Notes under the pieces: generated by a model
Databases searched by the model: none
What the model was told of the DNA's origin: nothing
The model's input: the letters and a program-made list of their open reading frames with translations, nothing else
Shown here: piece after piece, positions 1-38,776 of the stretch
How the letters are laid out: each line of letters opens with the position of its first letter
Position numbering within the stretch: the stretch's first letter is position 1
Made by a program: the position numbers and the translations under genes
From: an uncultured Gammaproteobacteria bacterium
Lineage (GTDB): Bacteria; Patescibacteriota; Patescibacteriia; UBA9570
Assembly: GCA_964385285.1 (NCBI GenBank)
Contig: CAYLOJ010000002.1
Span: 559-64,558, forward strand
Length of the DNA stretch: 64,000 nucleotides
Reading direction: 5' to 3'

Positions 1-133
1 GATCGACATAATCATCAAGGCGGTGTAATACACAAATTCAACATTGCCACGTACTAGGGCATTGAGCGAAAAGATAAACGTGTAGATTGACGTAAAGTAA
101 ACAATGAACTTCTCTAGTTGATTGGTAGTCATG
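1..133 (-). CDS. Partial CDS (N-terminal ~44 aa, continues beyond the window start); hydrophobic hypothetical protein
   Basis: Reverse complement of 1-133 reads ATG at 131-133 then MTTNQLEKFIVYFTSIYTFIFSLNALVRGNVEFVYYTALMIMSI... with no stop before the window edge. Not in the ORF track because it is incomplete. Confidence 0.25.
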
Positions 134-911
134 GTTTGACGATTAAAATTACCTTAGCGCCATTGTTAATATTATCTGGATCCCAATCATGATTGGCGGA
201 CATCAGCGTATCATAACTATAGGTGTAATCTGCGCCACGCCGAGTACCGGGGTCATTTGTAATGACATGCTCCGCGGTATATCCCTTAATGACGAGCATA
301 TGATATATCGGGCCGGGGGCAGTAAAGTTCGGATTGCCAAGTTCACGTCCAGCAGCAGGAAAGATGACTGGATACCCTTGTGCCAAAGCAGTTTTTACAT
401 CATCCCAGGTCCAATCGTAAATGACCTCGGTATGGAGATCATAAAAATCTGAGATCAAATGGGCAGTTTCCTCGGCAGTCGTATCGATTGGCTGTTTCAA
501 GGTATCTTTGTTGTATTGCACTAAGGTGACAATTGCTGTATCGGCATCATTTGCATCCGGGATGTCACGTCCCTGTAAAAAGCGCGCAGCCATTAATACA
601 CTGGCTTCTTCACAAGACTCTTCATGCAGGGCATCCCAATTCGTGAGTGGAGCCTGGGAAGTAAAAGGAATATCTAAATTTAATTCTGTAGGGATCTCAA
701 TGGCTACAGGTGTATTGCTATTGGTTTCCTCCGTCGTGTTAGTGGTAGATGCATTGTGAACAACATCCACATAGGAAACAGCGCTCGGTACTTCGGCTTT
801 GGGGTTACGCCATTCATTAATAGATTCTTTAATCCGAACGCGCTGTGTCCAGGCGAATACAACCATGATGATGACCAGGAGAACACTAAGGGTAATCAGA
901 ATTTTTTTCAT
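129..911 (-). CDS. Membrane-anchored/secreted peptidase C39-like (BtrH-like) domain protein
   Basis: N-terminal TM/signal (MKKILITLSVLLVIIMVVFA). C-terminal domain with IPFTSQAPLTNWD...ESCEEASVLMAARF...YPVIFP...HMLVIKGY...ITNDPGTRRG is typical of the Peptidase_C39_2 fold. Paralogous to the C-terminus of CDS 18692-19744. Confidence 0.5.
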   Translation of the reverse strand: MKKILITLSVLLVIIMVVFAWTQRVRIKESINEWRNPKAEVPSAVSYVDVVHNASTTNTTEETNSNTPVAIEIPTELNLDIPFTSQAPLTNWDALHEESCEEASVLMAARFLQGRDIPDANDADTAIVTLVQYNKDTLKQPIDTTAEETAHLISDFYDLHTEVIYDWTWDDVKTALAQGYPVIFPAAGRELGNPNFTAPGPIYHMLVIKGYTAEHVITNDPGTRRGADYTYSYDTLMSANHDWDPDNINNGAKVILIVKP

Positions 912-6187: not shown

Positions 6188-7747
6188 ATGAAACAGAAGT
6201 CTAAAACTCCACAACGACGTAAATTACAACGCAGTATCTATGCCGTGGGAGGCTTAGCGCTACCACCGGAAGCTGGCGCCTACGGTTTAGCCCGTTACAG
6301 TCGGTCTGATAAACCAGCCAGAGAGACCTTTACTGCAATGGCTGAAAAAATTCTCGAAGGGAATGACGCGATGAAGCGTTTTTTTGAGATTTTTTATTTC
6401 CAATATGGTCATGCCTCGATTGCTGACTTAGCCCATGTGGGGATGGCGGTAGAAAATATCTCCATGATCGCTGCGATGGATTTAGTGGACGAACAGCTAT
6501 GGGATGGCCAAGAACGTTCTACACGTTATCAACACTTCAGTGAAGATGCCGTGCATGAACCGAACAGCGTGACGAAGAATGCCAAAGTCGCTAAGCAGTA
6601 TCGCACGGGCATTGCCTACCTGATGGCTGAGTATGAAAAGCTGTATCCAGAATTGTTAGCCGCCGTACAAGAGCAAAATCCATTACCGAAAGATTATCCA
6701 GAGGGTGCCTACAAATCAGCTACCAAAGCGCGCGCTTTTGATATGGCACGCTATCTGTTGCCCTTAGCTACGTTGACCAGCGTTGGTCAGATTACCTCTG
6801 GCCGCACCTTAGAGAAGATGATTTCGCGGTTATACTCAAGTGACTATAGTGAAATTCGAGCGATGGCGGATGATCTGAAAACAGCTTGTAATTCTCCAGC
6901 GTTTAACCCGTTCAGCCAAGAGATTGCGAGCGGATTGAAGAAAATTCCGGATGCTAAATTACGTAAACGGTTAGAAAAAATTCTCGCTCCAGGACACCCA
7001 CTACCAACCTTAGTGAAGTACACGGCACCGATGAAGTATCAGATGGAGACAAAAAAAGATCTTCAACAAGCGGCACGTGAATTGTTGAAAATAAAAACGG
7101 TGGATTCGAGTTTTGATGTCCAGGCATTTCATAAACAAGACCCATTGGTGGAGGCTGTGACTACAGCGCTCTATGGCGTAACCCACTATTCCTACAAACA
7201 AATTTACACACAAGTAAAAGAGTGGAGTGAGAAGCGATTGATTGAGGTCTATGAATTAGCCACACGTAAACGAGGCGCGCATGATGAATTACCGCGCTAC
7301 TTAGATACTCATAGTGTGACGATGGATATCTTAATGGATGTGGGTTCTTACCGTGATATGCACCGACATCGTCGTACTATCCAAGTTCCGCAAGATTATA
7401 CTCCAATCCATGGTTACGATACGCATCCTGAAACCGGAAAATATGGTGGTCTCTATCCATATCAAGTCGCCATGGATAATATTTCAGAAACGTTGAAGAA
7501 ACTAGATGCAGTTAATCATGAAGCGGCCATTTATTTAATGCCGATGGGCTTTAAGCGTCGTTCATTGTTCAAGATGGGCTGGAATGAGATTGATTACATT
7601 GGCAAATTGCGTACCGGACCAGGCCGTCATTTATCGTATTGGACGATTGCACTCAGAATGGTTGAAGAGGCCAAAAAATTATCTCCTGTGCGCACACGAC
7701 ATATTCCCACCAAACCGTTATCGATGGATACGGTCTATGAGCGTTAA
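6188..7747 (+). CDS. thyX: ThyX-like (Thy1 family) flavin-dependent thymidylate synthase homolog, atypically long (519 aa)
   Basis: GHASIADLAHVGMAVENIS, QERSTRYQHF, ARYLLPLATLTSVGQITSGRTLEKMI and GSYRDMHRHRRT resemble ThyX blocks (GHFSVLEHASVSF, SQLSQRYV, ARAVLPNATETR..., GNYRAWRHF), recalled from memory of M. tuberculosis ThyX. The canonical RHR of the RHRx7-8S signature is not at the expected position. Confidence 0.5.
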   Translation: MKQKSKTPQRRKLQRSIYAVGGLALPPEAGAYGLARYSRSDKPARETFTAMAEKILEGNDAMKRFFEIFYFQYGHASIADLAHVGMAVENISMIAAMDLVDEQLWDGQERSTRYQHFSEDAVHEPNSVTKNAKVAKQYRTGIAYLMAEYEKLYPELLAAVQEQNPLPKDYPEGAYKSATKARAFDMARYLLPLATLTSVGQITSGRTLEKMISRLYSSDYSEIRAMADDLKTACNSPAFNPFSQEIASGLKKIPDAKLRKRLEKILAPGHPLPTLVKYTAPMKYQMETKKDLQQAARELLKIKTVDSSFDVQAFHKQDPLVEAVTTALYGVTHYSYKQIYTQVKEWSEKRLIEVYELATRKRGAHDELPRYLDTHSVTMDILMDVGSYRDMHRHRRTIQVPQDYTPIHGYDTHPETGKYGGLYPYQVAMDNISETLKKLDAVNHEAAIYLMPMGFKRRSLFKMGWNEIDYIGKLRTGPGRHLSYWTIALRMVEEAKKLSPVRTRHIPTKPLSMDTVYER

Positions 7748-8617: not shown

Positions 8618-9295
8618 CTACTCGCAGTCCGTGTCGCCGAACGTGTCGGCGGCGCCGTCGCAGTCGTCATCAAGGCCGTTGTTGCAGTTCTCGGGCGCGG
8701 CTGGGTTGATGACGTCGCTGGTGTCGTCGCAGTCGTCGCTGGCTGCGCCGTAGCCATCCCCGTCGTTGTCGTCGGTGATGCAGGTGGCGCCCACCTCCCA
8801 GTCCTCATCGAGCACACCGTCACAGTCCTCGTCCTCCTGATCCCCGCATTGCTCGGTGGCACCGGGGTGGATGGACGGATCCTGATCGTTGCAGTCGACG
8901 TCGTACTCATGGCCGTCGAGGTCACGGTCGAAGTCGTTGTCTCCGGCGCAGTTGGAGTCGAGACCGTCGTACCAGATCTCGGGCGCGGCTGGGTTGACGC
9001 TGGCATCGGCATCGTTGCAGTCTCCGCCCGTCCAGCTGGTGCCCGCGGGGAGCACACAGGTGGTGTTGAGGGCGTCGTAGCCGTAGCCATCGTCGTCCTC
9101 ATCCAGGTAGGCGATCTGTTGTAGGCCCTGGTCGATGAGACCATCACAGTCGTCATCGAGGCCGTTGCAGACCTCTGCGGTGGGAGTGCAGGACGGGCCG
9201 GTGTCGGCAACCGTCGCCGTGTCTTCCCCAAGGATCACCACCTTACCGGCGGTGCAGCCCGAGAGTAGACACAGGCACAGAATCATCAGTTTCAT
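8618..9295 (-). CDS. Secreted lipoprotein with MopE-like Cys/Asp-rich putative metal-binding repeats; GC-rich foreign gene
   Basis: Lipoprotein signal (MKLMILCLCLLSGC) preceded by a GGAGG RBS. Repeated CNGLDDDCDG / EDCDGVLDE / NGLDDDCDGAAD motifs. GC about 65%, with overlapping shadow ORFs in every frame. Confidence 0.6.
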   Translation of the reverse strand: MKLMILCLCLLSGCTAGKVVILGEDTATVADTGPSCTPTAEVCNGLDDDCDGLIDQGLQQIAYLDEDDDGYGYDALNTTCVLPAGTSWTGGDCNDADASVNPAAPEIWYDGLDSNCAGDNDFDRDLDGHEYDVDCNDQDPSIHPGATEQCGDQEDEDCDGVLDEDWEVGATCITDDNDGDGYGAASDDCDDTSDVINPAAPENCNNGLDDDCDGAADTFGDTDCE

Positions 9296-9419
9296 GGAAC
9301 CTCCGTTCCTGTTGAGGGTCGTTGCCTGAAAACGCGGATCATTTTTAGCTGACTTTGATGGAACTGTCAACGCTAACTGATGATCAAAATACCCAATTTT
9401 ACTATTGTAAAACCAAGCG

Positions 9420-9480: not shown

Positions 9481-9552
9481 TCAGGAGTAGCTCAGCGGTA
9501 GAGCAATACGCTGTTAACGTATGGGTCCTGGGTTCAAATCCCAGCTCCTGAG
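9481..9552 (+). tRNA. tRNA-Asn (anticodon GTT)
   Basis: Manual cloverleaf: acceptor TCAGGAG/CTCCTGA, D-arm GCTC-AGCGGTA-GAGC, anticodon stem ATACG/CGTAT with loop CTGTTAA, T-arm CTGGG-TTCAAAT-CCCAG, discriminator G. 72 nt with no encoded CCA. Confidence 0.9.
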
Positions 9553-9598
9553 CATAAATAAAATCACGCCCATCTGGGCGTGATTTTATTTGATTGTT
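9536..9598 (+). repeat. Direct repeat copy 1 (tRNA-Asn 3' end plus terminator; attL-like)
   Basis: aaatcccagctcctgagcataaataaaatcacgcccatctgggcgtgattttatttgattgttc is repeated at 10702-10767 with about 90% identity. Confidence 0.75.
9562..9591 (+). terminator. Rho-independent terminator of tRNA-Asn
   Basis: Hairpin AATCACGCCCA-tc-TGGGCGTGATT followed by TTTATTT. Confidence 0.7.
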
Positions 9599-9710
9599 CA
9601 AGTAGCTAAGGATTTGAAGGGTATCCGAAGAAAGTGCCGGTGGCACTTTGTGAGGAACCCAGGCCGTGAAGGAACTCTGAGCCGGCTTGCGGCGAAGAGT
9701 AGGTGAACGG

Positions 9711-9729
9711 AAATCCCAGCTCCTCAGGA
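9711..9729 (+). repeat. Third, degenerate partial copy of the tRNA-Asn 3' end (aaatcccagctcctcagga)
   Basis: Matches 16 of 19 nt of the tRNA acceptor/T-arm 3' segment. It lies between the two full repeats. Confidence 0.5.
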
Positions 9730-9801
9730 TATCACCCTACTGTTCTTTGAAGCATTGAGCATGATACACTGTAAACAATTTGATATTAGAAATGAATTCA
9801 A

Positions 9802-10689
9802 ATGAGCGATAAGTTAACACGTCAGAGTATATATTCTCAGATATCTCAGTCAATGCGATCTAGCTTTGAAGAATCAAGACAGCTGCCCCATCCAGGAGAA
9901 AAAGGTAGAGCTGCGGAGCTGGTTTTGCGTAACTTCTTATCAAAACATCTGCCAAAACGTTTTGAAGTTTGCTCAGGTTTTATTTTAGATAAAGAGGATA
10001 ATGTTTCTGGTCAAACAGATGTAATAATCTACGATTCTTTAAATTGCCCAGTCTATTCTGTTCATGATGACCTGAGAATTATTCCAAGTGATAACGTTGC
10101 TGCCGTAGTAGAAGTGAAGTCAACGCTCAGGAATCAAGATTTTAATGATGCAGCGACTAAGGCATCAGTAATAAAGCATTTAGTTAAAACACCTGAACAA
10201 CCATCTAAAGAGATGGTCTTAACCAATACTTATGTTTCTTTGTTTGCATTTGACAGCGACCTTCCAAAGGAGAAAGTATGCGAACTTCATGCCACTTCAG
10301 TAAATGGTCGTGGATTAACTTGGCATCTTGATTCTGTATGCATTCTAGATAAAGTAATTAGCTATACGTCTGTAGAAATCGAACAACAAACACAAGGTCC
10401 ACAACCCATGGAACTTTCAGCCTTGAATCCTGCTGTTACTCGAGATAGATTGACTAAATTTAGTATCAGCGCTGAAGAAAAGAACCAGGACAGTCTAGAA
10501 ATATGGTTGCGTTTACTGCTAGCACACTTATCATTCTTTCGACACCGCGTTGACCATCCTGGCTTTGATTGGGACCGTAGCACACTCACGTGCGTATCTT
10601 TATTTGATATGCCTAGACGAAACCCAGAACGGAATGATCCTTGCTATTGCCTATCAGGCAATAAGTGGAAGTACTGTCATGGCGCTTAG
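9802..10689 (+). CDS. PD-(D/E)xK nuclease-fold protein with a C-terminal SEC-C zinc-binding motif (cargo of the tRNA-flanked cassette)
   Basis: Nuclease-core motifs QTDVIIYD and AAVVEVKSTL (D...E-V-K). The C-terminus (RNDPCYCLSGNKWKYCHGA) matches the SEC-C CxC-x8-CH motif. Low GC (about 38%) and no SD sequence. Confidence 0.55.
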   Translation: MSDKLTRQSIYSQISQSMRSSFEESRQLPHPGEKGRAAELVLRNFLSKHLPKRFEVCSGFILDKEDNVSGQTDVIIYDSLNCPVYSVHDDLRIIPSDNVAAVVEVKSTLRNQDFNDAATKASVIKHLVKTPEQPSKEMVLTNTYVSLFAFDSDLPKEKVCELHATSVNGRGLTWHLDSVCILDKVISYTSVEIEQQTQGPQPMELSALNPAVTRDRLTKFSISAEEKNQDSLEIWLRLLLAHLSFFRHRVDHPGFDWDRSTLTCVSLFDMPRRNPERNDPCYCLSGNKWKYCHGA

Positions 10690-10701
10690 GCTTAAAACCT
10701 A

Positions 10702-10767
10702 AAATCCCAGCTCCTGAGCATAAATAAAATCGCGCCCAGACGGGCGTGATTTTATTTTATTGTTCCC
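10702..10767 (+). repeat. Direct repeat copy 2 (attR-like), including a second copy of the terminator hairpin
   Basis: aaatcccagctcctgagcataaataaaatcgcgcccagacgggcgtgattttattttattgttc. It begins 12 nt after the stop of CDS 9802-10689. Confidence 0.75.
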
Positions 10768-10848
10768 TTGCTGGGCAATGAACCTATTGCACCGCAAGCA
10801 GTGTTTCGACGTATTCACATAGCCAATGGGATAATGTAAAGGCCACCG

Positions 10849-10881
10849 GAAACATCGTCTCCGGTGGCCTTGCCGTGCCTC
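10849..10881 (-). terminator. Candidate terminator hairpin downstream of the GC-rich M23/MopE gene
   Basis: Perfect 12-bp stem AAGGCCACCGGA / TCCGGTGGCCTT with a 9-nt loop. The following U-tract on the minus strand is weak. Confidence 0.35.
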
Positions 10882-10945
10882 GCTTGGTCGACGCCTCGTC
10901 GCCGAGACGCCGACGCCTGTTGGGCACGGTGCCTACCTTCCCCCG

Positions 10946-13729
10946 CTACAGTCCGTTGCCGTAGCTGAAGCTCCAGCTGGCGCTGTTGCTGCAGGTCGAG
11001 CAGGTCCGCGGGATGCTGGTGTTGTTCAGCACGTAGAAGGTACCGCTACGCCGGACGATGATCTCGTCCTTACCGTCTCCGGTCAGGTCGGCGAAGTAGT
11101 AGTCGTCGCTGTCGCCATACCCGTAGGTGAAGTAGAAGTCGTCCCCGCCTTCGTGGGTCTGATCCACCGTGAAGAGGTTGCCCTCCCGGAAGGTCAGGTC
11201 GATCTCTCCGTCACCATTGAAGTCGGCCAGGTAGTAGTGCTGCGTACTGGTACCCCAACCGAAAGGGTAATACCACTCCTCGCCGCCCGCCGCGTTGTTG
11301 TCCACGACGAAGTAGCGAGTCGACCGCTGGATGGCCAAGGCGCCTCCGTTGCCGAAGTAGTGCCCAACATCACCGCTGACGCCGAAGTTGTAGGTGCGAT
11401 CCGTCTCTCCGTCCGCATCCTCGTCGAGGTAGAAGGTGCCGTAGCCGAACACCACCGCCACACCGTCGCCGGTGGAGAAGTAGGTTGCGCTGACACCATC
11501 ACCATAGGCGAAGACGTAGTCGCTGCTGCCGTCGAGGCCCTCATCGCAGAGGAGCATGTCCAGGCGCCGCAGGCACGGGTCGAGGATGCCGTCGTGGTCG
11601 GAGTCGATGAACAGGTACTGATCTTCCGGACCAGTCCAACTGTCGATCACCCACTCGTTGTTGTCCAAGGTGACACCGATCCCGTCGGAGTCATCATCCG
11701 GTTCGTAGTCGATCGCCTGGAAGCAGACGTTGTCGTTCGTGACCGTAGATTGGAGCTGGACCGATTGAGCCGCCTCGCTGAACCACAGCCCTTGGAAGGT
11801 GTCCGTGGCTGAGTCCAGTGTGAGGTCGTAGCACTCCAGCAGATCGCCCGTTGCGTAGGGGCCGCTGTAGCCACAGGCCGTCATCGGCTGTTCGAGACTG
11901 TACGTCACCAACCCCAGCGTGCTGAAGGTGTGGTCGAACGTCAGGGTCAACTGGGTCTGGTCGTGGCTGTTCGCCATGATGCAGGCATAGTTGCCCCAGG
12001 AGTACTGCATCCAATCTCCCTGGTTGAGGGACAGGATGAAGTGTCCGAAGTCCCAGCCACTGGGGATCAAGGTACCGCTCGCCGCTTCGTCAAAGTGTTC
12101 GCCGTCGAGATGATCCAGACCGGTTTCGGTCAAGAAGTCCTCGAAGTCGAGCTCAACTCCGCTCAGAGCGACCGAGTTGTTGTCGATGACGCCATCACAG
12201 TCGTTGTCGACGCCGTCGTACCACTCCCAGCTGTCCGGGTTGATGTTCGCATCGGTGTCGTCACAGTCACCATCGGCGACGCTGTCCCCATCGTTGTCGA
12301 GGTCATTGTCGTCCGCGGCGGCTGAATCCACATCGAGCGCGTCGTCGGTAATGCTGAACGCAGAGTAGATGCAGGTGAGCTGGGAGTTGTTGGTGATGGT
12401 TGCACTGCCCTCGCTCAGATCGTAGTAGACGACCCGTTGGTAGCCAGCGGCGTTGGTGCCGCTGAAGGTCTGCAGGTAGCGGTCTCCGTTCGCGCAGACA
12501 CCCCCCGTGGGGTAGCCGAAGTGCTTGGAGGCACCGTACTTCTCGTACTTGCGCGCGATGGCATAGGAAACGACGTCGTCCCAACCTCCGCTGGTGAACT
12601 CACCCGGTGCGAAGCCGCTCGGGTAGTCGAGCACGTCCACCGGATTCGCTCCGGTGTTGGTGTCGTCCGGGTGGTAGGTCACACGACAGTCCTGGAAATC
12701 CTGCACCCACTTGTGGCCCTTGCCGTAGACGTTGGTGATGGGATTGCCGCAGTACTGCGGATCATGGGACGTGGAGCCCTGCGGACCGTTGGTCTGCAAC
12801 CAGCCGGACCACTGCTGCGCTTGCACAACGTAGGCGTGGTTTGCACCGCCCCAATCGTCGAAGACGACGGCGCCAGTGCAGGAGCCCGTGTAGTCCTGGG
12901 TGTAGAGCGTGGTGTACTCGTAGTTGCCCGTGCGGCAATCCCGACAGGTTGAGGACTGGCTCGGCGTCTGGCCGCTGCTGTAGCCCCACCAGTGCAAGGT
13001 TCCATTGGCGCTGCTGATGCAGATGCCCGGACTCTCCTTGGTGCCCGTCGCCGAGTTCTTCCGCTTGTTGTGCTTGTTGTAGGTACCGAAGTCGGTAGTG
13101 AGAGCGGTGGAGATGAGAGTGGAGGTGGAGGTAGAACTACCAGGGAGAACCGGAGGACACTGAGTCCACAAGTTGTCATCTCCACACCCAGTATCTTCGT
13201 TGTAGATGTCGGGGTAGATTTCCTGAGTGGAATACAGGTCGTAGGGGTCAAGATTTTCACCGCACCCAGGCTGACCGTAGCTATCCTCACTGACTTCGTA
13301 GTGGAGGTGAAGATAGCCATTCGAAGCATTACCACTCTTGCCGGACATACCGAGATAATCACCCACACTGAAATACCCAGAGCTGAACTCGCAGCTCTCA
13401 AGGTGAGCATAGACAGTGTAGTAGGTGTGGGAGCCAGTAGCATAGCTACCCTTAGCGTACCAACCCCAACTGTCGCTCCAACCACACGTGTAGTTACCAT
13501 CATGGGAAGCGGTCACCTCGAAGGTCAACCACTGGCCAGAGGTCCCCTTGCGGTAATCAATGCCGCAATGGTTCGCGGTAGTATAGTCGTAGATCCAACC
13601 CTGCTGAACATAAACAGCAGCATCATTGGTCGGCAAGTACAGATAGTTCGGCGAATCGGCCTTGGCAGGCACAGTGAACAGGAACAGAGCCAAGATGCTC
13701 AGAACGAGGATGCGCAAAGAGCGTTCCAT
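10946..13729 (-). CDS. Secreted multidomain protein: N-terminal M23 (LytM) peptidase, Ser/Thr linker, MopE-like Cys/Asp repeats, C-terminal FG-GAP/VCBS-like repeats; GC-rich foreign gene
   Basis: Signal peptide MERSLRILVLSILALFLFTVPAKA with a GAGGT RBS. M23 motifs YYTVYAHLES...GMSGKSGNASNGYLHLHYEV. MopE-like DGDCDDTDANINPD and WYDGVDNDCDGVIDN. FG-GAP-like DFNGDGEIDL and DLTGDGKDEIIV. GC3 is very high, with shadow ORFs in all frames. Confidence 0.65.
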   Translation of the reverse strand: MERSLRILVLSILALFLFTVPAKADSPNYLYLPTNDAAVYVQQGWIYDYTTANHCGIDYRKGTSGQWLTFEVTASHDGNYTCGWSDSWGWYAKGSYATGSHTYYTVYAHLESCEFSSGYFSVGDYLGMSGKSGNASNGYLHLHYEVSEDSYGQPGCGENLDPYDLYSTQEIYPDIYNEDTGCGDDNLWTQCPPVLPGSSTSTSTLISTALTTDFGTYNKHNKRKNSATGTKESPGICISSANGTLHWWGYSSGQTPSQSSTCRDCRTGNYEYTTLYTQDYTGSCTGAVVFDDWGGANHAYVVQAQQWSGWLQTNGPQGSTSHDPQYCGNPITNVYGKGHKWVQDFQDCRVTYHPDDTNTGANPVDVLDYPSGFAPGEFTSGGWDDVVSYAIARKYEKYGASKHFGYPTGGVCANGDRYLQTFSGTNAAGYQRVVYYDLSEGSATITNNSQLTCIYSAFSITDDALDVDSAAADDNDLDNDGDSVADGDCDDTDANINPDSWEWYDGVDNDCDGVIDNNSVALSGVELDFEDFLTETGLDHLDGEHFDEAASGTLIPSGWDFGHFILSLNQGDWMQYSWGNYACIMANSHDQTQLTLTFDHTFSTLGLVTYSLEQPMTACGYSGPYATGDLLECYDLTLDSATDTFQGLWFSEAAQSVQLQSTVTNDNVCFQAIDYEPDDDSDGIGVTLDNNEWVIDSWTGPEDQYLFIDSDHDGILDPCLRRLDMLLCDEGLDGSSDYVFAYGDGVSATYFSTGDGVAVVFGYGTFYLDEDADGETDRTYNFGVSGDVGHYFGNGGALAIQRSTRYFVVDNNAAGGEEWYYPFGWGTSTQHYYLADFNGDGEIDLTFREGNLFTVDQTHEGGDDFYFTYGYGDSDDYYFADLTGDGKDEIIVRRSGTFYVLNNTSIPRTCSTCSNSASWSFSYGNGL

Positions 13730-13823
13730 GATGACCTCACAACAGATTGTAAAAGTACGTCCTAGCTAGGAGGATTCCTGAACTAGCCATACCAATCCAA
13801 TGGTTGGATTGGTAGTGGCCAAG

Positions 13824-14612
13824 TCAGGAATTGGTTTGAAATGTGTGCACAATATTTAATAAGTCATTTTGGTCATAATTGCCATTATTTGTTTCCATTG
13901 TAAAAACTACACTTTGGACTGGCTTACCCATGTTCGTTAATTCAGCATCCGGGAGCGGAATGTAAATATAGTGGTAATTTGAGTTGCCTTCCCAGCTTTT
14001 TTTCAGGTAAACATTAGTTGCTACAATATTGTTATCCAGTAGTGTTGTATCGCCAATTGTAAAAGCAAAACCTTGTTCACTAACTAAGTCAGAAACTTCA
14101 AGGTCAGAAACAGCAACTGAAATTAACTTACCTCTTGCAACTGATTCCATTACTCCTACTCCCATCACATCTGTTAGAGATTTGTAGTGATCAATTTCTG
14201 CAGTAATATCTGCGTTGTCAAGCGAAGTAGCAAATACTATATCTGTCGTATTGACCTGATATCGTGGGTTATCATATGATTTTTTATATTCTTCAAAGAT
14301 ATCGTTTGAAATTTGCCAGTCCTTTGGATACTTAAAACTAAATCCATATTTCTCATTTGTATATGTCTGCCAATCGGAAGTATCTAAATCTGAAACTTCA
14401 GTGTTGCTATTCTCGTTCAGATTGGTATTAGCAATGGCCTCGTTCACATTGTCATTCGCAGTGGTAGTATTTGTGACTGTGTTTGTATTGTTCACACTAG
14501 TATTCACCACTGCATTGGCATTGGTATTGGTCTTTGTATCAGTAACGCAGCCTGCGAGTGTGATGGCGCTCAAGGCTAGGGCTGGTAGTAGATAAGGTGG
14601 TTTGTATGTCAT
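13824..14612 (-). CDS. Lipoprotein with an N/T-rich low-complexity linker (hypothetical surface protein)
   Basis: Lipobox LALSAITLAGC. Linker TNTNANAVVNTSVNNTNTVTNTTTANDNVN. Globular C-terminal domain with no recognised family. Confidence 0.5.
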   Translation of the reverse strand: MTYKPPYLLPALALSAITLAGCVTDTKTNTNANAVVNTSVNNTNTVTNTTTANDNVNEAIANTNLNENSNTEVSDLDTSDWQTYTNEKYGFSFKYPKDWQISNDIFEEYKKSYDNPRYQVNTTDIVFATSLDNADITAEIDHYKSLTDVMGVGVMESVARGKLISVAVSDLEVSDLVSEQGFAFTIGDTTLLDNNIVATNVYLKKSWEGNSNYHYIYIPLPDAELTNMGKPVQSVVFTMETNNGNYDQNDLLNIVHTFQTNS

Positions 14613-14904: not shown

Positions 14905-16047
14905 CTACCTGGATGGGGTTAACAAAGTTCTGTAAATGCGATTATACTCAGTGACAAAATAAAGATAGTTTTCAGTCAATACCATATCATTAATGCTAGC
15001 GTCATGTGTAGACCCAATTTGTTTCCAATTAGTAAAGTCTTTCGTACTTAGCACAACACTTTGTCCAGTATCATTCAGTGCTGACAGATATATTAATTCA
15101 GAGCTGCTATCAAAAAGTATGTGATCTTGAACTTTGAATCCAGTTATTCTCAATTTTTTCCAAGTTGTCCCTGCATCAGCTGAGTAGTATAATATACGAC
15201 GCTCTCCTTGCTCGAAGTATTCAAAAATATAGTTGCCTATTAAACCAACGTCCGTAGGACTAGTTTGAAATTTTTTAATGGATTGCCAGTGCGTGGCGTC
15301 ATCAGATATAAATAACTTTTTATTTGACTGAAGATATATTTTTTGATTAAAAACAAAAGAATGAACTGGCATGATAACTTCATGATCTGGCACATTCTGA
15401 TAATCAAGTACATCTGATTGGTTTGATTTTAGCGTATATGCACCCAAACGTTGGTTGCGGCTTCCAAAAAAATAGTACTTACCATTAAAGCGTACGCCCG
15501 ACATTTCCAATAAGTATGATTCTACCGTTGGCAATAATACAGCCTTTGAATCGCCCACGCCATGATGAAACTTGGTAACGACAAGCTGACTAGAACCACA
15601 AGAAGTATAAAGCCACTCTTTATAAGAGAAGAAATATTGTTGGCTTTGAGTGTAATAACAGTTATTCAAGAAAGTGATGGTGTTATTAGTCGTGATCCTG
15701 TACAAACCATCCCCAAAGTAAACATACAATGCATTGTTGTAGACAACTGCTGGTTTATGCCCAACCTGGTAGCTAGAGTAATCAAACGAACCTTGAAGTA
15801 GATAGCTCCAACCAGCTTGCGTCAGTGTTGCGAATGTGTAGGGATACGATGAACTTATGGGCCCCCCACTATCATAGTGAGTAAAGTAAATAGTATTATT
15901 GAAACTGTATAAGTGCTGGCTTGCATTGGAATAAGGGCTAATAATTTCTGGAGAAACATCTTCCCAGGTTGCATCAACGACATCCATAGCAAAACCCCTA
16001 CAGGGTAACAATAACAGTGCTGCTAAAACGATACATTTATAATCCAT
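14905..16047 (-). CDS. Secreted BNR/Asp-box repeat protein (beta-propeller, sialidase-like fold)
   Basis: Signal peptide MDYKCIVLAALLLLPCRGFA. Asp-box motifs YYSADAGTTWKKL and STKDFTNWKQI. The annotated longer start at 16128 runs into repeat copy B, so the start was moved to the internal Met at 16047. Confidence 0.5.
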   Translation of the reverse strand: MDYKCIVLAALLLLPCRGFAMDVVDATWEDVSPEIISPYSNASQHLYSFNNTIYFTHYDSGGPISSSYPYTFATLTQAGWSYLLQGSFDYSSYQVGHKPAVVYNNALYVYFGDGLYRITTNNTITFLNNCYYTQSQQYFFSYKEWLYTSCGSSQLVVTKFHHGVGDSKAVLLPTVESYLLEMSGVRFNGKYYFFGSRNQRLGAYTLKSNQSDVLDYQNVPDHEVIMPVHSFVFNQKIYLQSNKKLFISDDATHWQSIKKFQTSPTDVGLIGNYIFEYFEQGERRILYYSADAGTTWKKLRITGFKVQDHILFDSSSELIYLSALNDTGQSVVLSTKDFTNWKQIGSTHDASINDMVLTENYLYFVTEYNRIYRTLLTPSR

Positions 16048-16091
16048 ATGTGCAGCATAAAAGTTCACACCAATAAACACAAGGGCGCTGA

Positions 16092-16174
16092 TGCGACGGC
16101 GCAAGGGCAAAAACGCTACTTTCATCAAGCAGAGTAAAATAATTTACGCATGAATGAGTTTTCCCCAGACGGCG
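16092..16174 (+). repeat. 83-nt paralogous intergenic element, copy B
   Basis: gcgacggcgcaagggcaaaaacgctactttcatcaagcagagtaaaataatttacgcatgaatgagttttccccagacggcgc. It lies about 45-125 nt upstream of minus-strand CDS 14905-16047. Confidence 0.6.
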
Positions 16175-18691: not shown

Positions 18692-19744
18692 ATGATGAAC
18701 AGATATTTTACAGCAACAGTGATTGTCTTACTCTCTGTTGTAGCACCTACTATGACTTCAGCTAGTACTGTGGCGGAGCGCACGCAAGGCAAAATTTTAT
18801 TACAAGTGGAACAGCACGGGGAAGCCTGGTATGTGAATCCAGCGAATGAGTTACGTTATTATTTAGGTGCGCCCAGTGATGCCTATCAAGTGATGAAATC
18901 GTTGGGGGTTGGAATTACAAATGCAAATTTGCAATTGATTCCAAAACAAGGCCAACCCTGGGATGGTAATAGCGCGGTCATGAATAGTGTGCGTGGGAAA
19001 ATTGTGCTGCAGGTCGAAAAACACGGCGAGGCTTGGTACGTGAATCCTACTGATGGTAAGCGCTACTTTTTGGGACGGCCAAAAGCTGCCTGGAAATTAA
19101 TGACTAAATTTGGCTTAGGCATTAGTGACGCTGATCTGGATCAAATTGAAATAGCAGGGGAGTACGACAGCGATCATATTCCAAGCTCATATTTATTAGA
19201 TGTGCCATTTACTAGCCAAGCACCCAGTGGAGATTGGTCTTCACCCTACAGCGAAGCTTGTGAAGAAGCGATTTTGGTCATGCTTAGCCATTGGAAAGCA
19301 GGAACAAGTTTTTCGGTCACGCAAGTCGAAGATGAAATCCAAAGTATTGTGCAATGGGAGCTAGCGAACTATGGTCATCACGAAGATACTGCTATGGCTG
19401 AAACAGCTAACACGGCGAGCCAATATGAGGGTTTAAAGGTGAAGGTTTCGCGGACGGTCACTATTAATCGTTTGAAGCAACTGGTCAGCGAAGGTAAACC
19501 AGTGATTGTGCCGGTCTATGGCAAGGCCTTGGGCAACCCTCATTTTCTAAATGGAGGACCAGATTATCATGTTGTACTACTGGTGGGATACGAAGGTACA
19601 GATTTTATAGTGCATGATCCAGGTACGCGTTACGGTGAAAATTACCATTATAATGTAGATATATTTTACAATGCCATTCACGATCTAACGGATCCAGAAT
19701 CAAATATTGCGAACGGTGAGAAAGCTATTGTTGTTGTCCAATAA
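18692..19744 (+). CDS. Secreted C39-like peptidase domain protein with two tandem ~50-aa N-terminal repeats
   Basis: Signal peptide. Repeats GKILLQVEQHGEAWYVNPANELRYYLG... and GKIVLQVEKHGEAWYVNPTDGKRYFLG.... The C-terminus (VPFTSQAPSGDWS...EACEEAIL...KPVIVP...HVVLLVGY...HDPGTRYG) is paralogous to CDS 129-911. Confidence 0.5.
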   Translation: MMNRYFTATVIVLLSVVAPTMTSASTVAERTQGKILLQVEQHGEAWYVNPANELRYYLGAPSDAYQVMKSLGVGITNANLQLIPKQGQPWDGNSAVMNSVRGKIVLQVEKHGEAWYVNPTDGKRYFLGRPKAAWKLMTKFGLGISDADLDQIEIAGEYDSDHIPSSYLLDVPFTSQAPSGDWSSPYSEACEEAILVMLSHWKAGTSFSVTQVEDEIQSIVQWELANYGHHEDTAMAETANTASQYEGLKVKVSRTVTINRLKQLVSEGKPVIVPVYGKALGNPHFLNGGPDYHVVLLVGYEGTDFIVHDPGTRYGENYHYNVDIFYNAIHDLTDPESNIANGEKAIVVVQ

Positions 19745-31039: not shown

Positions 31040-31232
31040 AGACCCTGGTTTATCCTAAGCCATACCTTTACAACTTTTAGGGGAATCCGGTTAGAATCCG
31101 GAGCTGTGCCGCAACCGTATGTCTGAATGTTAGACGAGCCGGGATACCTCTTATCGTGTATGTTCTCGAGCAAGGACAGACGATCGATGTATCCTCATCT
31201 GTTGTCGTCCTGCTCTCAGCAGGATTTTTTTA
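31040..31232 (+). ncRNA. Cobalamin (B12) riboswitch with a terminator expression platform
   Basis: Core AGGGGAATCCGGTTAGAATCCGGAGCTGTGCCGCAACCGTATG is close to the E. coli btuB leader core (AGGGAATCCAGTGCGAATCTGGAGCTGACGCGCAGCGGTAAGG, as recalled). It is followed by terminator TCCTGCT-ctc-AGCAGGA + TTTTTTT at 31208-31231, 22 nt before the start of CDS 31253. Confidence 0.7.
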
Positions 31233-38329: not shown

Positions 38330-38776
38330 ATGGGCGTGGCCCGGGGTTTTTCTTACATTCAACTCCTACTCGTCATCACCATGTTGGCGGTATTGGCTGC
38401 AGTGGCTTCGCCGTATTATTTATCGTGGCAAACTCGTCAGCAAGTGCGTAGTACTAGTGCGATGTTATGGTCAGATCTTCACTATGCGCAAAGTCGAGCC
38501 ATGCAACTTGAACAATCGGACGCATGGGGCGTGCATATAAATCAGAGCCAACATGAATATGTGATTTTTCATGGTTCTACTTATGACAGTAGCGATCTCT
38601 ATAACGAAACAATTACCTATTCAGACGGCGTGACGATTACACCAGATACAGACATTGCATTTGCAGGTTTAACAGGCGCAGTTGCTAGTGACCTTACCTT
38701 AACCATTACGGCTAATGCCTTACCGAGTGAAAGCCGAACCATTACGATCAATGAAGAAGGTCTCATTTCACAATAA
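38330..38776 (+). CDS. Prepilin-type N-terminal domain protein (minor pilin/pseudopilin; Gln rather than Glu at +5)
   Basis: MGVARG^FSYIQLLLVITMLAVLAAVASPYY. Confidence 0.45.
   Translation: MGVARGFSYIQLLLVITMLAVLAAVASPYYLSWQTRQQVRSTSAMLWSDLHYAQSRAMQLEQSDAWGVHINQSQHEYVIFHGSTYDSSDLYNETITYSDGVTITPDTDIAFAGLTGAVASDLTLTITANALPSESRTITINEEGLISQ

What the first reader, a model, noticed from the sequence alone, without database searches (positions are those of the whole stretch)
10946..13729. GC-rich 927-aa secreted fusion: M23 peptidoglycan endopeptidase + MopE Cys/Asp repeats + FG-GAP/VCBS beta-propeller repeats
An N-terminal LytM/M23 catalytic domain (HLHYEV and the rest of the motif intact) is joined through a poly-Ser/Thr linker to metal-binding-like repeats and integrin-like FG-GAP repeats. 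The architecture is that of an exported cell-wall hydrolase with adhesion or targeting modules, typical of predatory or antagonistic bacteria such as myxobacterial lytic factors.

In a small-genome, possibly episymbiotic organism, such an acquired lytic enzyme could act on a host or prey cell wall.
Basis: partly seen in the sequence, partly recalled or inferred. Interest (0 to 1): 0.55.

Follow-up and report, generated by a model that had tools for sequence, protein, structure and literature searches.

The report
Mosaic secreted M23 cell-wall hydrolase
This gene encodes an exported enzyme that most likely cuts bacterial cell walls: a zinc-peptidase head on a long wall-binding stalk, with foreign codon usage for its genome and a head that has been swapped between relatives, which makes it an unusual member of a familiar enzyme class.

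Summary
The ORF is real: window 10946-13729, minus strand, 927 aa. It encodes a very acidic, Cys-rich protein with a Sec signal peptide.

**Domains, N to C:**
- An M23 metallopeptidase head with all zinc and catalytic residues (H54, D58, H109, H141, H143).
- A Ser/Thr linker.
- One MopE motif.
- A ~155-aa orphan domain.
- Six ~45-aa FG-GAP-like repeats, below the Pfam threshold.

**Origin.** Codon usage is foreign: GC3 is 0.84 in the stalk and 0.61 in the head, against 0.31-0.48 in host genes. The gene abuts a tRNA-Asn integration hot spot.

**Relatives.** Only about five close relatives were found. Every relative whose upstream DNA is available follows a PsbP_2-like lipoprotein gene in low-GC DNA.

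**Mosaic history.** Against the closest relative, the stalk is 92% nt identical (dS 0.33, dN/dS 0.11). The heads share only ~28% aa identity. A second pair of loci shows the same break at the linker.

**Verdict.** This is a horizontally mobile, recombining, secreted peptidoglycan endopeptidase with wall-binding modules. Use against a host or prey wall is plausible but untested. It is a new variant of a known kind, of moderate interest.

The parts
10946..13729 (-). Complete CDS, 927 aa: a secreted modular M23 peptidase
   Evidence: The ORF is listed. Full-length homologue P0001 is 77% identical. dN/dS is 0.11 over aa 211-927 against L001.
13658..13729 (-). Signal peptide, aa 1-24 (MERSLRILVLSILALFLFTVPAKA|DS)
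   Evidence: Read from the sequence: a basic n-region, a hydrophobic core and an A-K-A cleavage-type site. This is my inference; no predictor was available. An MER...-type start is shared with P0001 and P0014.
13145..13657 (-). M23 metallopeptidase head, aa 25-195. It carries H54-x3-D58, H109 and H141-x-H143, and has GC3 0.61.
   Evidence: - Pfam PF01551 matches at E 1.7e-6, 28.5 bits, just under the 28.7 cut-off.
- The motif residues align to those of 3slu.
- The head-family profile hits 36 solved M23 structures.
13025..13144 (-). Ser/Thr linker and conserved junction (STLISTALTTDFGTYNKHNKRKNSATGTKESPG). The recombination breakpoint lies near nt 13099.
   Evidence: - Nucleotide homology to L001 starts at window 13099.
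- Identity jumps from about 0.3 to above 0.9 at aa 198-226.
- The LI[ST][TA].. motif is shared by six loci.
12320..13024 (-). LGFP-like repeat domain, aa 236-470, with about three repeats. It is the putative cell-wall-binding module.
   Evidence: - Pfam gives no hit.
- A profile search finds 36 relatives, 24 of 34 scanned carrying M23 and 3 carrying CHAP.
- The family profile hits the LGFP domain of C. glutamicum PS1/MytA, 6swz, at E 2.5e-6.
12182..12268 (-). Single MopE-type Asp/Cys motif, aa 488-516, within an acidic stretch at aa 471-518
   Evidence: Pfam PF11617 scores 31.1 bits against a cut-off of 27.
11714..12175 (-). Orphan domain, aa 519-672, of unknown fold
   Evidence: - There is no Pfam hit at E<=10 and no PDB sequence hit.
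- It is absent from P0014.
- It is 97-100% conserved against P0001.
- The structure model failed, with pLDDT 29.
10949..11713 (-). Six ~45-aa FG-GAP-like repeats, aa 673-927, with D-x-D/N-G-D-G-type motifs. They probably form a beta-propeller.
   Evidence: - Pfam FG-GAP_3 scores 17.2 bits and FG-GAP 14.3 bits, both below cut-off.
- P0013, which carries a valid FG-GAP_3 domain, is the only database hit, at E 1.4e-3, and aligns in several registers.
- A repeat HMM finds six units.
10839..10871 (-). GC-rich hairpin downstream of the stop codon, a probable terminator. It marks the end of the block shared with L001.
   Evidence: The sequence is shown. The homology block ends at 10839, and the same hairpin is present in L001. 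The consensus terminator scan did not call it, because the T-run is weak.
13746..13787 (-). Conserved intergenic motif upstream of the M23 gene: GCTAGTTCAGGAATCCTCCTAGCTAG...CTTTTACAAT
   Evidence: It is shared by five independent loci even though the flanking coding sequence has diverged. No convincing RNA structure was found.
13824..14612 (-). Upstream PsbP_2-like lipoprotein, 262 aa. It is the syntenic partner gene and has host-like GC3 of 0.33.
   Evidence: - Pfam PF18933 scores 33.4 bits.
- A lipoprotein with the motif DTSDW.TY.NE.YGFSFKYP precedes the M23 gene in the window, L001, L082, L084/L087 and L086.
9481..10770 (+). tRNA-Asn followed by three direct copies of its 3' end. The copies bracket a NucC-like DUF6602/SEC-C gene (9802-10689) and form an integration hot spot directly downstream of the M23 gene.
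   Evidence: The tRNA is called. The repeats are at 9536, 9711 and 10702.

Best explanation
**What it is.** The gene encodes a Sec-exported, catalytically competent M23 zinc endopeptidase that cuts peptidoglycan peptides. The head is carried on a long, acidic, disulfide-rich stalk. The stalk consists of an LGFP-like repeat domain that binds cell-wall polymer, a MopE motif, an orphan domain and a six-repeat FG-GAP-like propeller that provides adhesion or calcium-dependent ligand binding.

**How it evolves.** The gene is not native in composition. It belongs to a very small family that always follows a PsbP_2-like lipoprotein gene. The catalytic head and the stalk recombine independently at the conserved linker.

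**Likely use.** The most likely use is lysis or remodelling of another cell's wall (competitor, host or prey) rather than housekeeping growth.

**Shown versus inferred.** Shown: the domain content, the motif integrity, the foreign codon usage, purifying selection, the head/stalk mosaic and the synteny. Inferred: export, enzymatic activity, wall binding and the target being a foreign cell.
For: **M23 head**
- The motif residues align to solved M23 enzymes.
- The head profile hits 36 solved M23 peptidases, down to E 1e-19.

**LGFP-like domain**
- The profile hits the PS1/MytA LGFP domain 6swz at E 2.5e-6.
- MytA's LGFP domains are reported to bind peptidoglycan-arabinogalactan (PMC11299179).
- In 34 relatives the domain is fused to M23 in 24 and to CHAP in 3.

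**Other modules and export**
- The MopE motif scores above its cut-off.
- Six FG-GAP-like repeats are present.
- P0014 repeats the M23, middle-domain, MopE, FG-GAP_3 order with FG-GAP_3 at 51.9 bits.
- A signal peptide, 24 Cys and 136 acidic against 33 basic residues fit an extracellular protein.

**Foreign origin**
- GC3 is 0.84 in the stalk and 0.61 in the head, against 0.31-0.48 in host genes.
- The gene is adjacent to tRNA-Asn att-like repeats.

**Functional and mosaic**
- Against L001, the stalk has dS 0.33 and dN/dS 0.11. The head has saturated dS and 28% aa identity.
- L084 and L086 break at the same place, with the stalk at 92% nt identity and unrelated heads.
- Head and stalk similarity matrices are incongruent.
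- Relatives form tandem arrays.
Against: - There is no biochemical evidence.
- Both structure predictions failed (pLDDT 29-30), so no fold-level check of any domain was possible.
- This head scores just under Pfam's M23 cut-off.
- The FG-GAP assignment is sub-threshold, and the window's C terminus does not align significantly to P0014's FG-GAP region (E 0.04).
- The window protein itself gives no Pfam LGFP hit. The LGFP link is transitive, through a family profile.
- M23 enzymes with intact sites also serve housekeeping roles in growth and division, and the gene lies in a chromosomal neighbourhood with dnaG, rpoD and thyX.
- The host organism and any target organism are unknown.
Confidence: 0.6

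Rival explanations
1. It is a housekeeping autolysin. The M23 endopeptidase opens the producer's own peptidoglycan for growth or daughter-cell separation, and the stalk anchors it to the producer's own wall.
For: - Intact-site M23 enzymes such as ShyA are among the best structural-sequence matches.
- LGFP domains anchor proteins to the producer's own wall in Corynebacterium (PMC11299179; PMC12113857).
- The gene lies near core genes dnaG, rpoD, thyX and murJ.
- It is under strong purifying selection.
Against: - Codon usage is foreign.
- No close relative was found among the 185,579 species-representative genomes, and only about five exist in billions of proteins.
- The head has been swapped, and relatives form tandem arrays.
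- The gene is adjacent to an integration hot spot.
- Core autolysins are normally vertically inherited and native in composition.
Confidence: 0.2
2. It is an effector-immunity pair. The M23 head is a swappable toxin domain, and the upstream lipoprotein is its cognate inhibitor that protects the producer's wall.
For: - The lipoprotein gene lies immediately upstream in every locus that has upstream sequence.
- It adjoins the variable head end of the M23 gene.
- Its C-terminal domain is as variable as the heads.
- Lipoprotein-M23 units occur in tandem.
- The PsbP/Mog1-like fold class includes protein-binding chaperones (my own knowledge).
Against: - Heads and lipoprotein C-domains do not co-vary in the one informative pair. 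The L082 and L084 heads are 69% identical, yet their lipoprotein C-domains are unrelated.
- PADLOC gives no hit, and Pfam gives only a weak PsbP_2 hit.
- No interaction evidence exists.
Confidence: 0.12
3. It is a phage- or mobile-element-derived lysin (a tail-associated or lysis enzyme) left in the chromosome.
For: - M23 domains occur in phage virion proteins that match the head profile (Gp16 9m7n, 'Internal protein' 9k2v).
- The gene sits beside tRNA-Asn att-like repeats.
- In L001 it neighbours a restriction-modification system and Replic_Relax and HTH genes of similarly high GC.
Against: - No relative was found in 2.9 million viral contigs.
- No phage structural, integrase or lysis genes lie nearby in the window.
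- It has a classical signal peptide and a very long stalk.
- Its synteny with a host-like lipoprotein gene is conserved.
Confidence: 0.05
4. It is an artefact: a chimeric assembly joins a high-GC fragment to a low-GC genome, or the gene is a decaying pseudogene.
For: GC changes abruptly at both gene borders and inside the gene.
Against: - The same low-GC lipoprotein to high-GC M23 junction appears in at least four other contigs, recovered from NCBI, ENA, JGI and Logan records, and is always in frame.
- The ORF is intact at 927 aa, and dN/dS is 0.11.
Confidence: 0.03

Closest known systems
Modular bacteriolytic M23 endopeptidases: lysostaphin, zoocin A, LytM, ShyA, TagE
   Same: - The catalytic domain family and the full H-x3-D / H / H-x-H motif set are the same.
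- It is secreted.
- A catalytic domain is joined by a linker to a wall-targeting module.
   Different: - The targeting part is not SH3b, LysM or a zoocin-type recognition domain. It is a ~720-aa stalk made of an LGFP-like domain, a MopE motif, an orphan domain and FG-GAP-like repeats.
- The head sits at the N terminus of a very long acidic protein.
- The substrate bond is unknown.
LGFP repeat domain of Corynebacterium glutamicum PS1/MytA (PDB 6swz, 6sx4; Pfam PF08310)
   Same: - It has the repeat signature: ...GGP.S.LG.P.t.E.....Q.F..G...
- The similarity is at profile level, E 2.5e-6.
- It is associated with cell-envelope enzymes.
   Different: - The window protein gets no Pfam LGFP hit.
- The repeats are longer and Cys-containing, with an inserted 'YP..APG..W...SY.FA.AYE..G' segment.
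- The domain is fused to peptidoglycan hydrolases rather than to a mycoloyltransferase.
- The close family is found in low-GC contigs rather than in Actinomycetota.
Phage endolysins and polymorphic toxin systems, as models of domain shuffling
   Same: - A catalytic module is exchanged on a conserved targeting or delivery module at a linker.
- Loci form tandem arrays with a small adjacent gene.
   Different: - The variable module is N-terminal, whereas polymorphic toxins vary at the C terminus.
- Every head seen is again an M23 domain, of a different subtype, rather than a different enzyme class.
- No dedicated secretion system, phage context or demonstrated immunity protein was found.
M23/CHAP + LGFP-like + FG-GAP proteins with type IX secretion sorting domains
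   Same: - The domain logic is the same: a hydrolase head, then the same middle-domain family, then FG-GAP or carbohydrate-binding modules.
   Different: - Identity in the middle domain is only 30-35%.
- Those proteins are exported through a C-terminal Por_Secre_tail, which the window protein lacks.
- No lipoprotein partner information is available for them.

Membership tests
Peptidase M23 (Pfam PF01551 / MEROPS M23) | Match to the family model at or above the curated cut-off | tested here: inconclusive
   - The full protein scores 25.1 bits and the aa 1-200 fragment 28.5 bits, against a cut-off of 28.7, with E 1.7e-6.
- A profile of this head plus six relatives hits 36 solved M23 structures, the best at E 1.3e-19.
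Peptidase M23 (Pfam PF01551 / MEROPS M23) | Zinc ligands H-x3-D and the second His of H-x-H, plus the two catalytic His residues | tested here: met
   H54, D58, H109 (YAHL), H141 and H143 (HLHYE) align to the same motifs in 3slu and 6muk. D58, H109, H141 and H143 are invariant across the seven heads. H54 is replaced by Cys in two relatives.
Peptidase M23 (Pfam PF01551 / MEROPS M23) | LytM-type beta-sheet fold and zinc-dependent peptidoglycan endopeptidase activity | not testable with these tools
   The AlphaFold model of aa 1-475 had pLDDT 30 and is unusable.
LGFP repeat (Pfam PF08310) | Match of the protein itself to the Pfam model | tested here: not met
   No family matched aa 230-475, even at E<=10.
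LGFP repeat (Pfam PF08310) | Homology to a solved LGFP domain at profile level, with the repeated LG.P...Q.F..G signature | tested here: met
   - The 30-sequence family profile A8 hits PS1 LGFP domains 6swz and 6sx4 at E 2.5e-6 and 1e-4, in several repeat registers.
- The Pfam LGFP hits in relatives P0031 (E 0.011) and P0035 (E 0.067) are weak and fall inside the homologous region; the hits in P0022 (E 4.4e-5) and P0037 (E 0.0029) lie next to it.
- The window has CGNPITNVYGKGHKWVQDFQDC and FGYPTGGVCANGDRYLQTFSG.
LGFP repeat (Pfam PF08310) | Binding to cell-wall polymer | not testable with these tools
   This is inferred only from MytA, as described in PMC11299179.
MopE-type metal-binding motif (Pfam PF11617) | Match at or above the cut-off | tested here: met
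   It scores 31.1 bits against 27 at aa 488-516, as a single copy. The middle Cys of the usual pattern is replaced (EWYDG), a variant also seen in P0009.
FG-GAP / FG-GAP_3 (VCBS-like) beta-propeller repeats (Pfam PF01839, PF13517) | Match at or above the cut-off | tested here: not met
   FG-GAP_3 scores 17.2 bits against 26.9, and FG-GAP 14.3 against 22.1. Both appear only when the C-terminal fragment is scanned alone.
FG-GAP / FG-GAP_3 (VCBS-like) beta-propeller repeats (Pfam PF01839, PF13517) | Tandem ~45-60-aa repeats with a D-x-D/N-G-D-G calcium-loop-like motif, homologous to bona fide FG-GAP repeats | tested here: inconclusive
   - Six repeats were delimited.
- The only database relative of the C terminus, P0013 (E 1.4e-3), carries a valid FG-GAP_3 domain where it aligns.
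- Similarity to the strong FG-GAP repeats of P0014 and P0026 is marginal.
FG-GAP / FG-GAP_3 (VCBS-like) beta-propeller repeats (Pfam PF01839, PF13517) | Closed beta-propeller fold, usually seven blades | tested here: inconclusive
   The model of aa 476-927 had pLDDT 29, although it was all-beta in the repeat region. Only six repeats were recognised.
Polymorphic effector with cognate immunity gene | Variable catalytic module on a conserved carrier, exchanged by recombination | tested here: met
   - Window vs L001: the stalk is 92% nt identical and the heads 28% aa identical.
- L084 vs L086: the stalk is 92% nt identical and the heads are unrelated at the DNA level.
- The similarity matrices are incongruent.
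Polymorphic effector with cognate immunity gene | Adjacent small gene that co-varies with the catalytic module and neutralises it | tested here: inconclusive
   - Adjacency is conserved in five loci.
- L082 and L084 have 69% identical heads but unrelated lipoprotein C-domains.
- Only five loci are available, and no binding test is possible.

The most novel reading that the evidence does not exclude
The locus is a recombining 'lysin cassette' system of a small group of low-GC, possibly episymbiotic bacteria. A conserved promoter and signal peptide on one side, and a conserved linker and LGFP-like stalk on the other, act as recombination anchors, between which different M23 heads are exchanged. 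The always-adjacent hypervariable lipoprotein is the producer's protection. The persistently high GC3 of the whole gene, across at least five low-GC contexts, would reflect either continuing import from a high-GC pool (for example the wall-binding module of a high-GC host lineage) or GC-biased gene conversion at a recombination hot spot. The enzyme would then be a host- or prey-wall-breaching weapon whose specificity is retuned by head swapping.
Probability: 0.15. Interest if true: 0.7.

Novelty: new variant of a known kind. Interest (0 to 1): 0.42.

Why it matters
Modular M23 lysins are well known, so the enzyme class is not new. Three features go beyond the ordinary.

1. **A previously unmodelled LGFP-like domain family.** It is preferentially fused to M23 and CHAP hydrolases. 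This extends a wall-binding module, known structurally only from Corynebacterium MytA, to lytic enzymes outside Actinomycetota.

2. **A clean natural example of catalytic-head exchange.** The break is at a defined linker and is seen twice independently. The head has saturated divergence next to a stalk with dS 0.33. This is useful as a template for engineering chimeric lysins.

3. **A gene that stays GC3-rich in low-GC genomes.** GC3 is 0.7-0.86 in at least five low-GC genomic contexts, while the syntenic partner gene is host-like. This poses a concrete question about gene flow or biased gene conversion.

If the host is an episymbiont, the protein is a candidate for the still poorly known machinery by which such cells engage another cell's wall.

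Tried and rejected
- **Structure prediction.** Models of aa 476-927 (2-sequence alignment) and aa 1-475 (4 sequences) both came back at pLDDT 29-30. No fold search was run, because low-confidence models give meaningless matches.
- **Genome scan for the target.** The scan of species-representative genomes found no relative.
- **Genome scan for host identity.** The second scan, with TopA, gave at most 49% identity to MAGs with conflicting labels, so it did not identify the host.
- **Viral contigs.** No relative was found.
- **Exact-sequence look-up of the target.** It is not on record.
- **Metagenome scan.** The narrower alignment added only three short contigs.
- **Pfam on isolated fragments.** Nothing matched the middle domain or aa 520-690. 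A PDB sequence search with the C-terminal 408 aa found nothing meaningful.
- **Immunity co-variation.** I considered whether the lipoprotein co-varies with the head. The small matrix does not support it.
- **RNA element.** I considered whether the conserved intergenic motif is an RNA structure. RNAalifold gives -0.6 kcal/mol with no compensatory pairs, so it was rejected.
- **Amino-acid composition.** I considered whether composition alone explains the GC excess. It does not, because the excess lies in third codon positions.
- **Promoter and terminator scan.** It was uninformative.
- **Defence-system models.** PADLOC hit none of the target, the lipoprotein or the small MopE protein.


Full report
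**1. The observation**

The ORF exists exactly as stated: 10946..13729 on the minus strand, ATG start, 927 aa.

It is compositionally distinct from its surroundings.
- 300-nt windows run at 0.59-0.64 GC from 10900 to 13000 and at 0.52-0.54 from 13000 to 13600. The window as a whole is about 0.45, and the two flanking genes are 0.35-0.42.
- The excess is in third codon positions, so it reflects codon usage and not amino-acid composition. GC3 is 0.835 for aa 211-927 and 0.61 for aa 1-210, against 0.31-0.48 for 18 other genes of the window.
- The only other window gene with this signature is the small MopE-repeat lipoprotein at 8618-9370 (GC3 0.785).

**2. Anatomy of the protein**

*Signal peptide (aa 1-24).* The sequence MERSLRILVLSILALFLFTVPAKA|DS reads as a Sec signal peptide. 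This is my inference from the sequence, since no predictor was available. The mature protein is very acidic (136 Asp+Glu against 33 Lys+Arg) and has 24 cysteines, as expected for an extracellular protein.

*M23 head (aa 25-195).*
- Pfam gives E 1.7e-6 but 25.1-28.5 bits, just under the 28.7 cut-off.
- The diagnostic residues are all present and align to solved M23 enzymes: H54-CGI-D58, H109 in YAHL, and H141-L-H143 in HLHYEV.
- A profile of this head plus six related heads hits 36 solved M23 peptidases. These include TagE (1.3e-19), zoocin A (3e-17), ShyA (6e-17), lysostaphin (2e-12) and LytM (3e-11).
- I accept the M23 assignment and the integrity of the active-site motifs.

*Linker (aa 196-235).* This is a short Ser/Thr-rich stretch followed by a conserved segment, LISTALTTDFGTYNKHNKRKNSATGTKESPG. 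The segment is shared by all family members.

- Pfam finds nothing here, even at E<=10.
- A full HMMER search of 1.84 billion representative proteins, with a three-sequence profile, found only 36 relatives.
- Of the 34 relatives scanned, 24 carry M23, 3 carry CHAP, 7 carry a type IX secretion sorting domain, 4 carry FG-GAP_3, 5 carry MopE and 2 carry LGFP.
- The 30-sequence family profile hits the LGFP domain of Corynebacterium glutamicum PS1/MytA (6swz at E 2.5e-6, 6sx4 at 1e-4) in several repeat registers.
- Weak Pfam LGFP hits in relatives P0031 and P0035 fall inside the homologous region; the stronger hits in P0022 and P0037 lie just after it.
- According to PMC11299179, MytA's LGFP domains bind the peptidoglycan-arabinogalactan wall. 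PMC12113857 makes a similar statement.
- I therefore read aa 236-470 as about three divergent LGFP-like repeats and as the wall-binding module. The homology is shown; the binding is inferred.

*MopE motif (aa 471-518).* This is an acidic stretch with one MopE motif (31.1 bits against a cut-off of 27). It is one motif and not repeats.

*Orphan domain (aa 519-672).* It has no match in Pfam, in PDB sequences or in the protein databases beyond the one close homologue. The architecture-sharing relative P0014 lacks it.

*C-terminal repeats (aa 673-927).*
- There are six repeats of about 45 aa with the pattern Y-x-aD-x-x-GDG-x-x-D...R-x-G-x-F-x-V...F-x-YG.
- Pfam's FG-GAP_3 and FG-GAP models see them only below threshold, at 17.2 and 14.3 bits.
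- The only database relative of this region, P0013 (E 1.4e-3 in 5.8 billion proteins), has a valid FG-GAP_3 domain exactly where it aligns. It aligns in several shifted registers.
- P0014 has the same overall order (M23, middle domain, MopE, FG-GAP_3 at 51.9 bits). However, its propeller region is not significantly alignable to the window's.
- 'FG-GAP-like' is therefore reasonable, but membership is not demonstrated.

*Structure models.* Both AlphaFold jobs failed for lack of alignment depth (pLDDT 29-30). No fold-level evidence exists for any domain.

**3. Relatives and genomic context**

*Rarity of the family.*
- In 5.8 billion protein clusters the only full-length relative is P0001 (77% identity).
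- The sensitive search adds P0012, P0014 and P0015. The metagenome scan adds L086.
- Nothing was found among the 185,579 species-representative genomes or in the viral contigs.

*Conserved upstream lipoprotein.*
- In every locus with upstream sequence (window, L001, L082, L084/L087, L086), the M23 gene is preceded at about 100-140 nt by a lipoprotein gene.
- That gene has an Asn/Thr-rich linker and the motif DTSDW.TY.NE.YGFSFKYP (Pfam PsbP_2 in the window copy). Its GC3 is host-like at 0.29-0.43, while the M23 gene has GC3 0.70-0.86.
- The intergenic region carries a conserved motif, GCTAGNNCAGGAATCCTCCT..CTAG..CTYTTYACAA, in five loci. It shows no convincing RNA structure.

*Tandem arrays.* In the P0012 lineage the units are tandem: truncated M23, lipoprotein, M23.

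*Integration hot spot in the window.*
- The 3' flank of the M23 gene abuts a tRNA-Asn integration hot spot.
- The tRNA's 3' end plus its terminator is repeated at 9536, 9711 and 10702. The repeats bracket a low-GC NucC-like DUF6602/SEC-C nuclease gene.
- The same att-like repeat lies at the end of L001, next to restriction-modification, Replic_Relax and HTH genes of high GC.

*Host identity.* The host is unresolved.
- TopA is at most 49% identical to MAGs labelled variously Peregrinibacteria/Peribacteria/Patescibacteria, Bdellovibrionales, Planctomycetota and others.
- The gene content is compatible with a Patescibacteria-type cell but does not prove it. That content includes MurJ, type IV pilus genes without a recognised secretin, and short Mfd and RelA/SpoT proteins.

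**4. The mosaic**

*Window vs L001.*
- The two share 2,263 nt at 91.8% identity, from window 13099 (codon ~211, inside the linker) to 10839 (the hairpin after the stop codon).
- Upstream of that point there is no detectable nucleotide similarity, and the heads are 28% identical as proteins.
- In 30-codon windows, amino-acid identity jumps from 0.26-0.45 to 0.8-1.0 between codons 198 and 256.
- By Nei-Gojobori estimates, the stalk has dS 0.33, dN 0.037 and dN/dS 0.11. The head has dS saturated at 3.4 and dN 0.73.

*A second, independent pair.* L084 (P0012) and L086 are 91.9% identical in DNA from the linker onward but carry unrelated heads.

*Incongruent similarity matrices.* L084's head is closest to L082's (69%), while its stalk is closest to L086's (96%, against 50% to L082).

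*Interpretation.* Heads and stalks therefore have separate histories, and the conserved linker is a recurrent exchange point. Strong purifying selection on the stalk shows that the protein is functional.

The lipoprotein C-terminal domains are all mutually unrelated, even where the heads are 69% identical. The attractive idea that the lipoprotein is a head-specific immunity protein is thus not supported by the little data available. It is not excluded either.

**5. How it most likely works**

- *Shown:* a complete M23 motif set, a wall-binding-type repeat domain, an extracellular-type composition, selection for function, foreign codon usage and modular recombination.
- *Inferred:*
  - The protein is exported by Sec.
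  - The LGFP-like domain docks it on peptidoglycan or an attached polymer.
  - The MopE and FG-GAP-like parts probably bind calcium and a surface ligand.
  - The zinc head cleaves peptide bonds in the cross-links or stems.
- *Why a foreign wall is favoured:* the family's rarity, mobility, tandem amplification and head exchange fit an enzyme used against other cells' walls (competitor, host or prey) better than a core autolysin.
- *Rivals:* the autolysin reading is the main rival (about 0.2). Effector-immunity, phage remnant and artefact readings are less likely, for the reasons given in their entries.

**6. Comparison with known systems and verdict**

It works like the modular M23 bacteriolysins (lysostaphin, zoocin A), and its head is a member of M23 by motif and profile evidence. 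The stalk is unlike theirs.
- The middle domain is a divergent LGFP relative that no Pfam model covers.
- The propeller-like part is only FG-GAP-like.
- One domain is an orphan.

The head-swapping resembles endolysin or polymorphic-toxin modularity, but here the variable module is N-terminal and is always M23.

I class it as a new variant of a known kind, of moderate interest.
- It was over-confident on FG-GAP.
- It was incomplete, missing the LGFP-like and orphan domains.
- Its ecological reading remains untested.

Noticed in passing
window 9481-10770: The 3' end of tRNA-Asn plus its terminator is repeated three times (9536, 9711 with 2 mismatches, 10702). The repeats bracket a solitary low-GC gene (9802-10689) that encodes a NucC-like PD-(D/E)xK nuclease (DUF6602; PADLOC NucC effector, 94 bits) fused to a SEC-C motif. 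This is an integrase-less islet with a defence-type nuclease.
   Followed up: partly
window 13746-13787 (- strand); L001 ~6800-6840; L082 ~1245-1290; L084 ~805-850; L086 ~1335-1380: A conserved intergenic DNA motif lies between the lipoprotein and M23 genes: GCTAGNNCAGGAATCCTCCT..CTAG..CTYTTYACAA. It is kept in five loci whose flanking coding sequences have diverged beyond recognition. RNAalifold finds no structure, so it is probably a promoter or operator.
   Followed up: partly
L084, L086, L087 (relatives from metagenomes): Lipoprotein-M23 units are arranged in tandem. A truncated 352-aa M23 gene (head plus the first LGFP-like repeat) is followed by a lipoprotein gene and then by another M23 gene. 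L086 also carries a remnant of a linker and middle domain upstream of its lipoprotein gene.
   Followed up: partly
window 8618-9370 (- strand); L001 10278-12478: A small lipoprotein made of four MopE repeats has the same foreign codon usage (GC3 0.785) as the target. It lies on the other side of the tRNA-Asn. L001 also has a MopE-repeat lipoprotein downstream of its M23 gene, with a low-GC 5' part and a high-GC 3' part.
   Followed up: partly
L001 1-5900: The closest homologue's contig carries an EcoRI-like restriction-modification pair, a Replic_Relax protein, an HTH regulator and a 446-aa protein, all of high GC (GC3 0.65-0.89). They lie between the tRNA-Asn-like att repeat and the low-GC lipoprotein gene. 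This looks like a high-GC mobile element in a low-GC host.
   Followed up: no
relatives P0012 and P0014 (head alignment A11): In two related heads, the first zinc ligand of the H-x3-D motif is Cys instead of His (C-Q-G-V-D). The other motif residues are kept.
   Followed up: no
window 129-911 (-) and 18692-19744 (+); 38715-42338 (+); 31081-31148 (+): The window also contains two Peptidase_C39_2-like proteins and a 1207-aa protein with an H-type lectin hit inside a type IV pilus gene cluster (PilB, PilC, PilM). A cobalamin riboswitch lies ahead of a 250-aa ORF and a prenyltransferase/terpene-cyclase-like protein.
   Followed up: no
window 14905-16128 (- strand): A 407-aa low-GC ORF, probably secreted, lies upstream of the lipoprotein gene. 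It has weak DUF6242 and Sortilin/Vps10-type beta-propeller hits. It is not conserved in the other loci.
   Followed up: no
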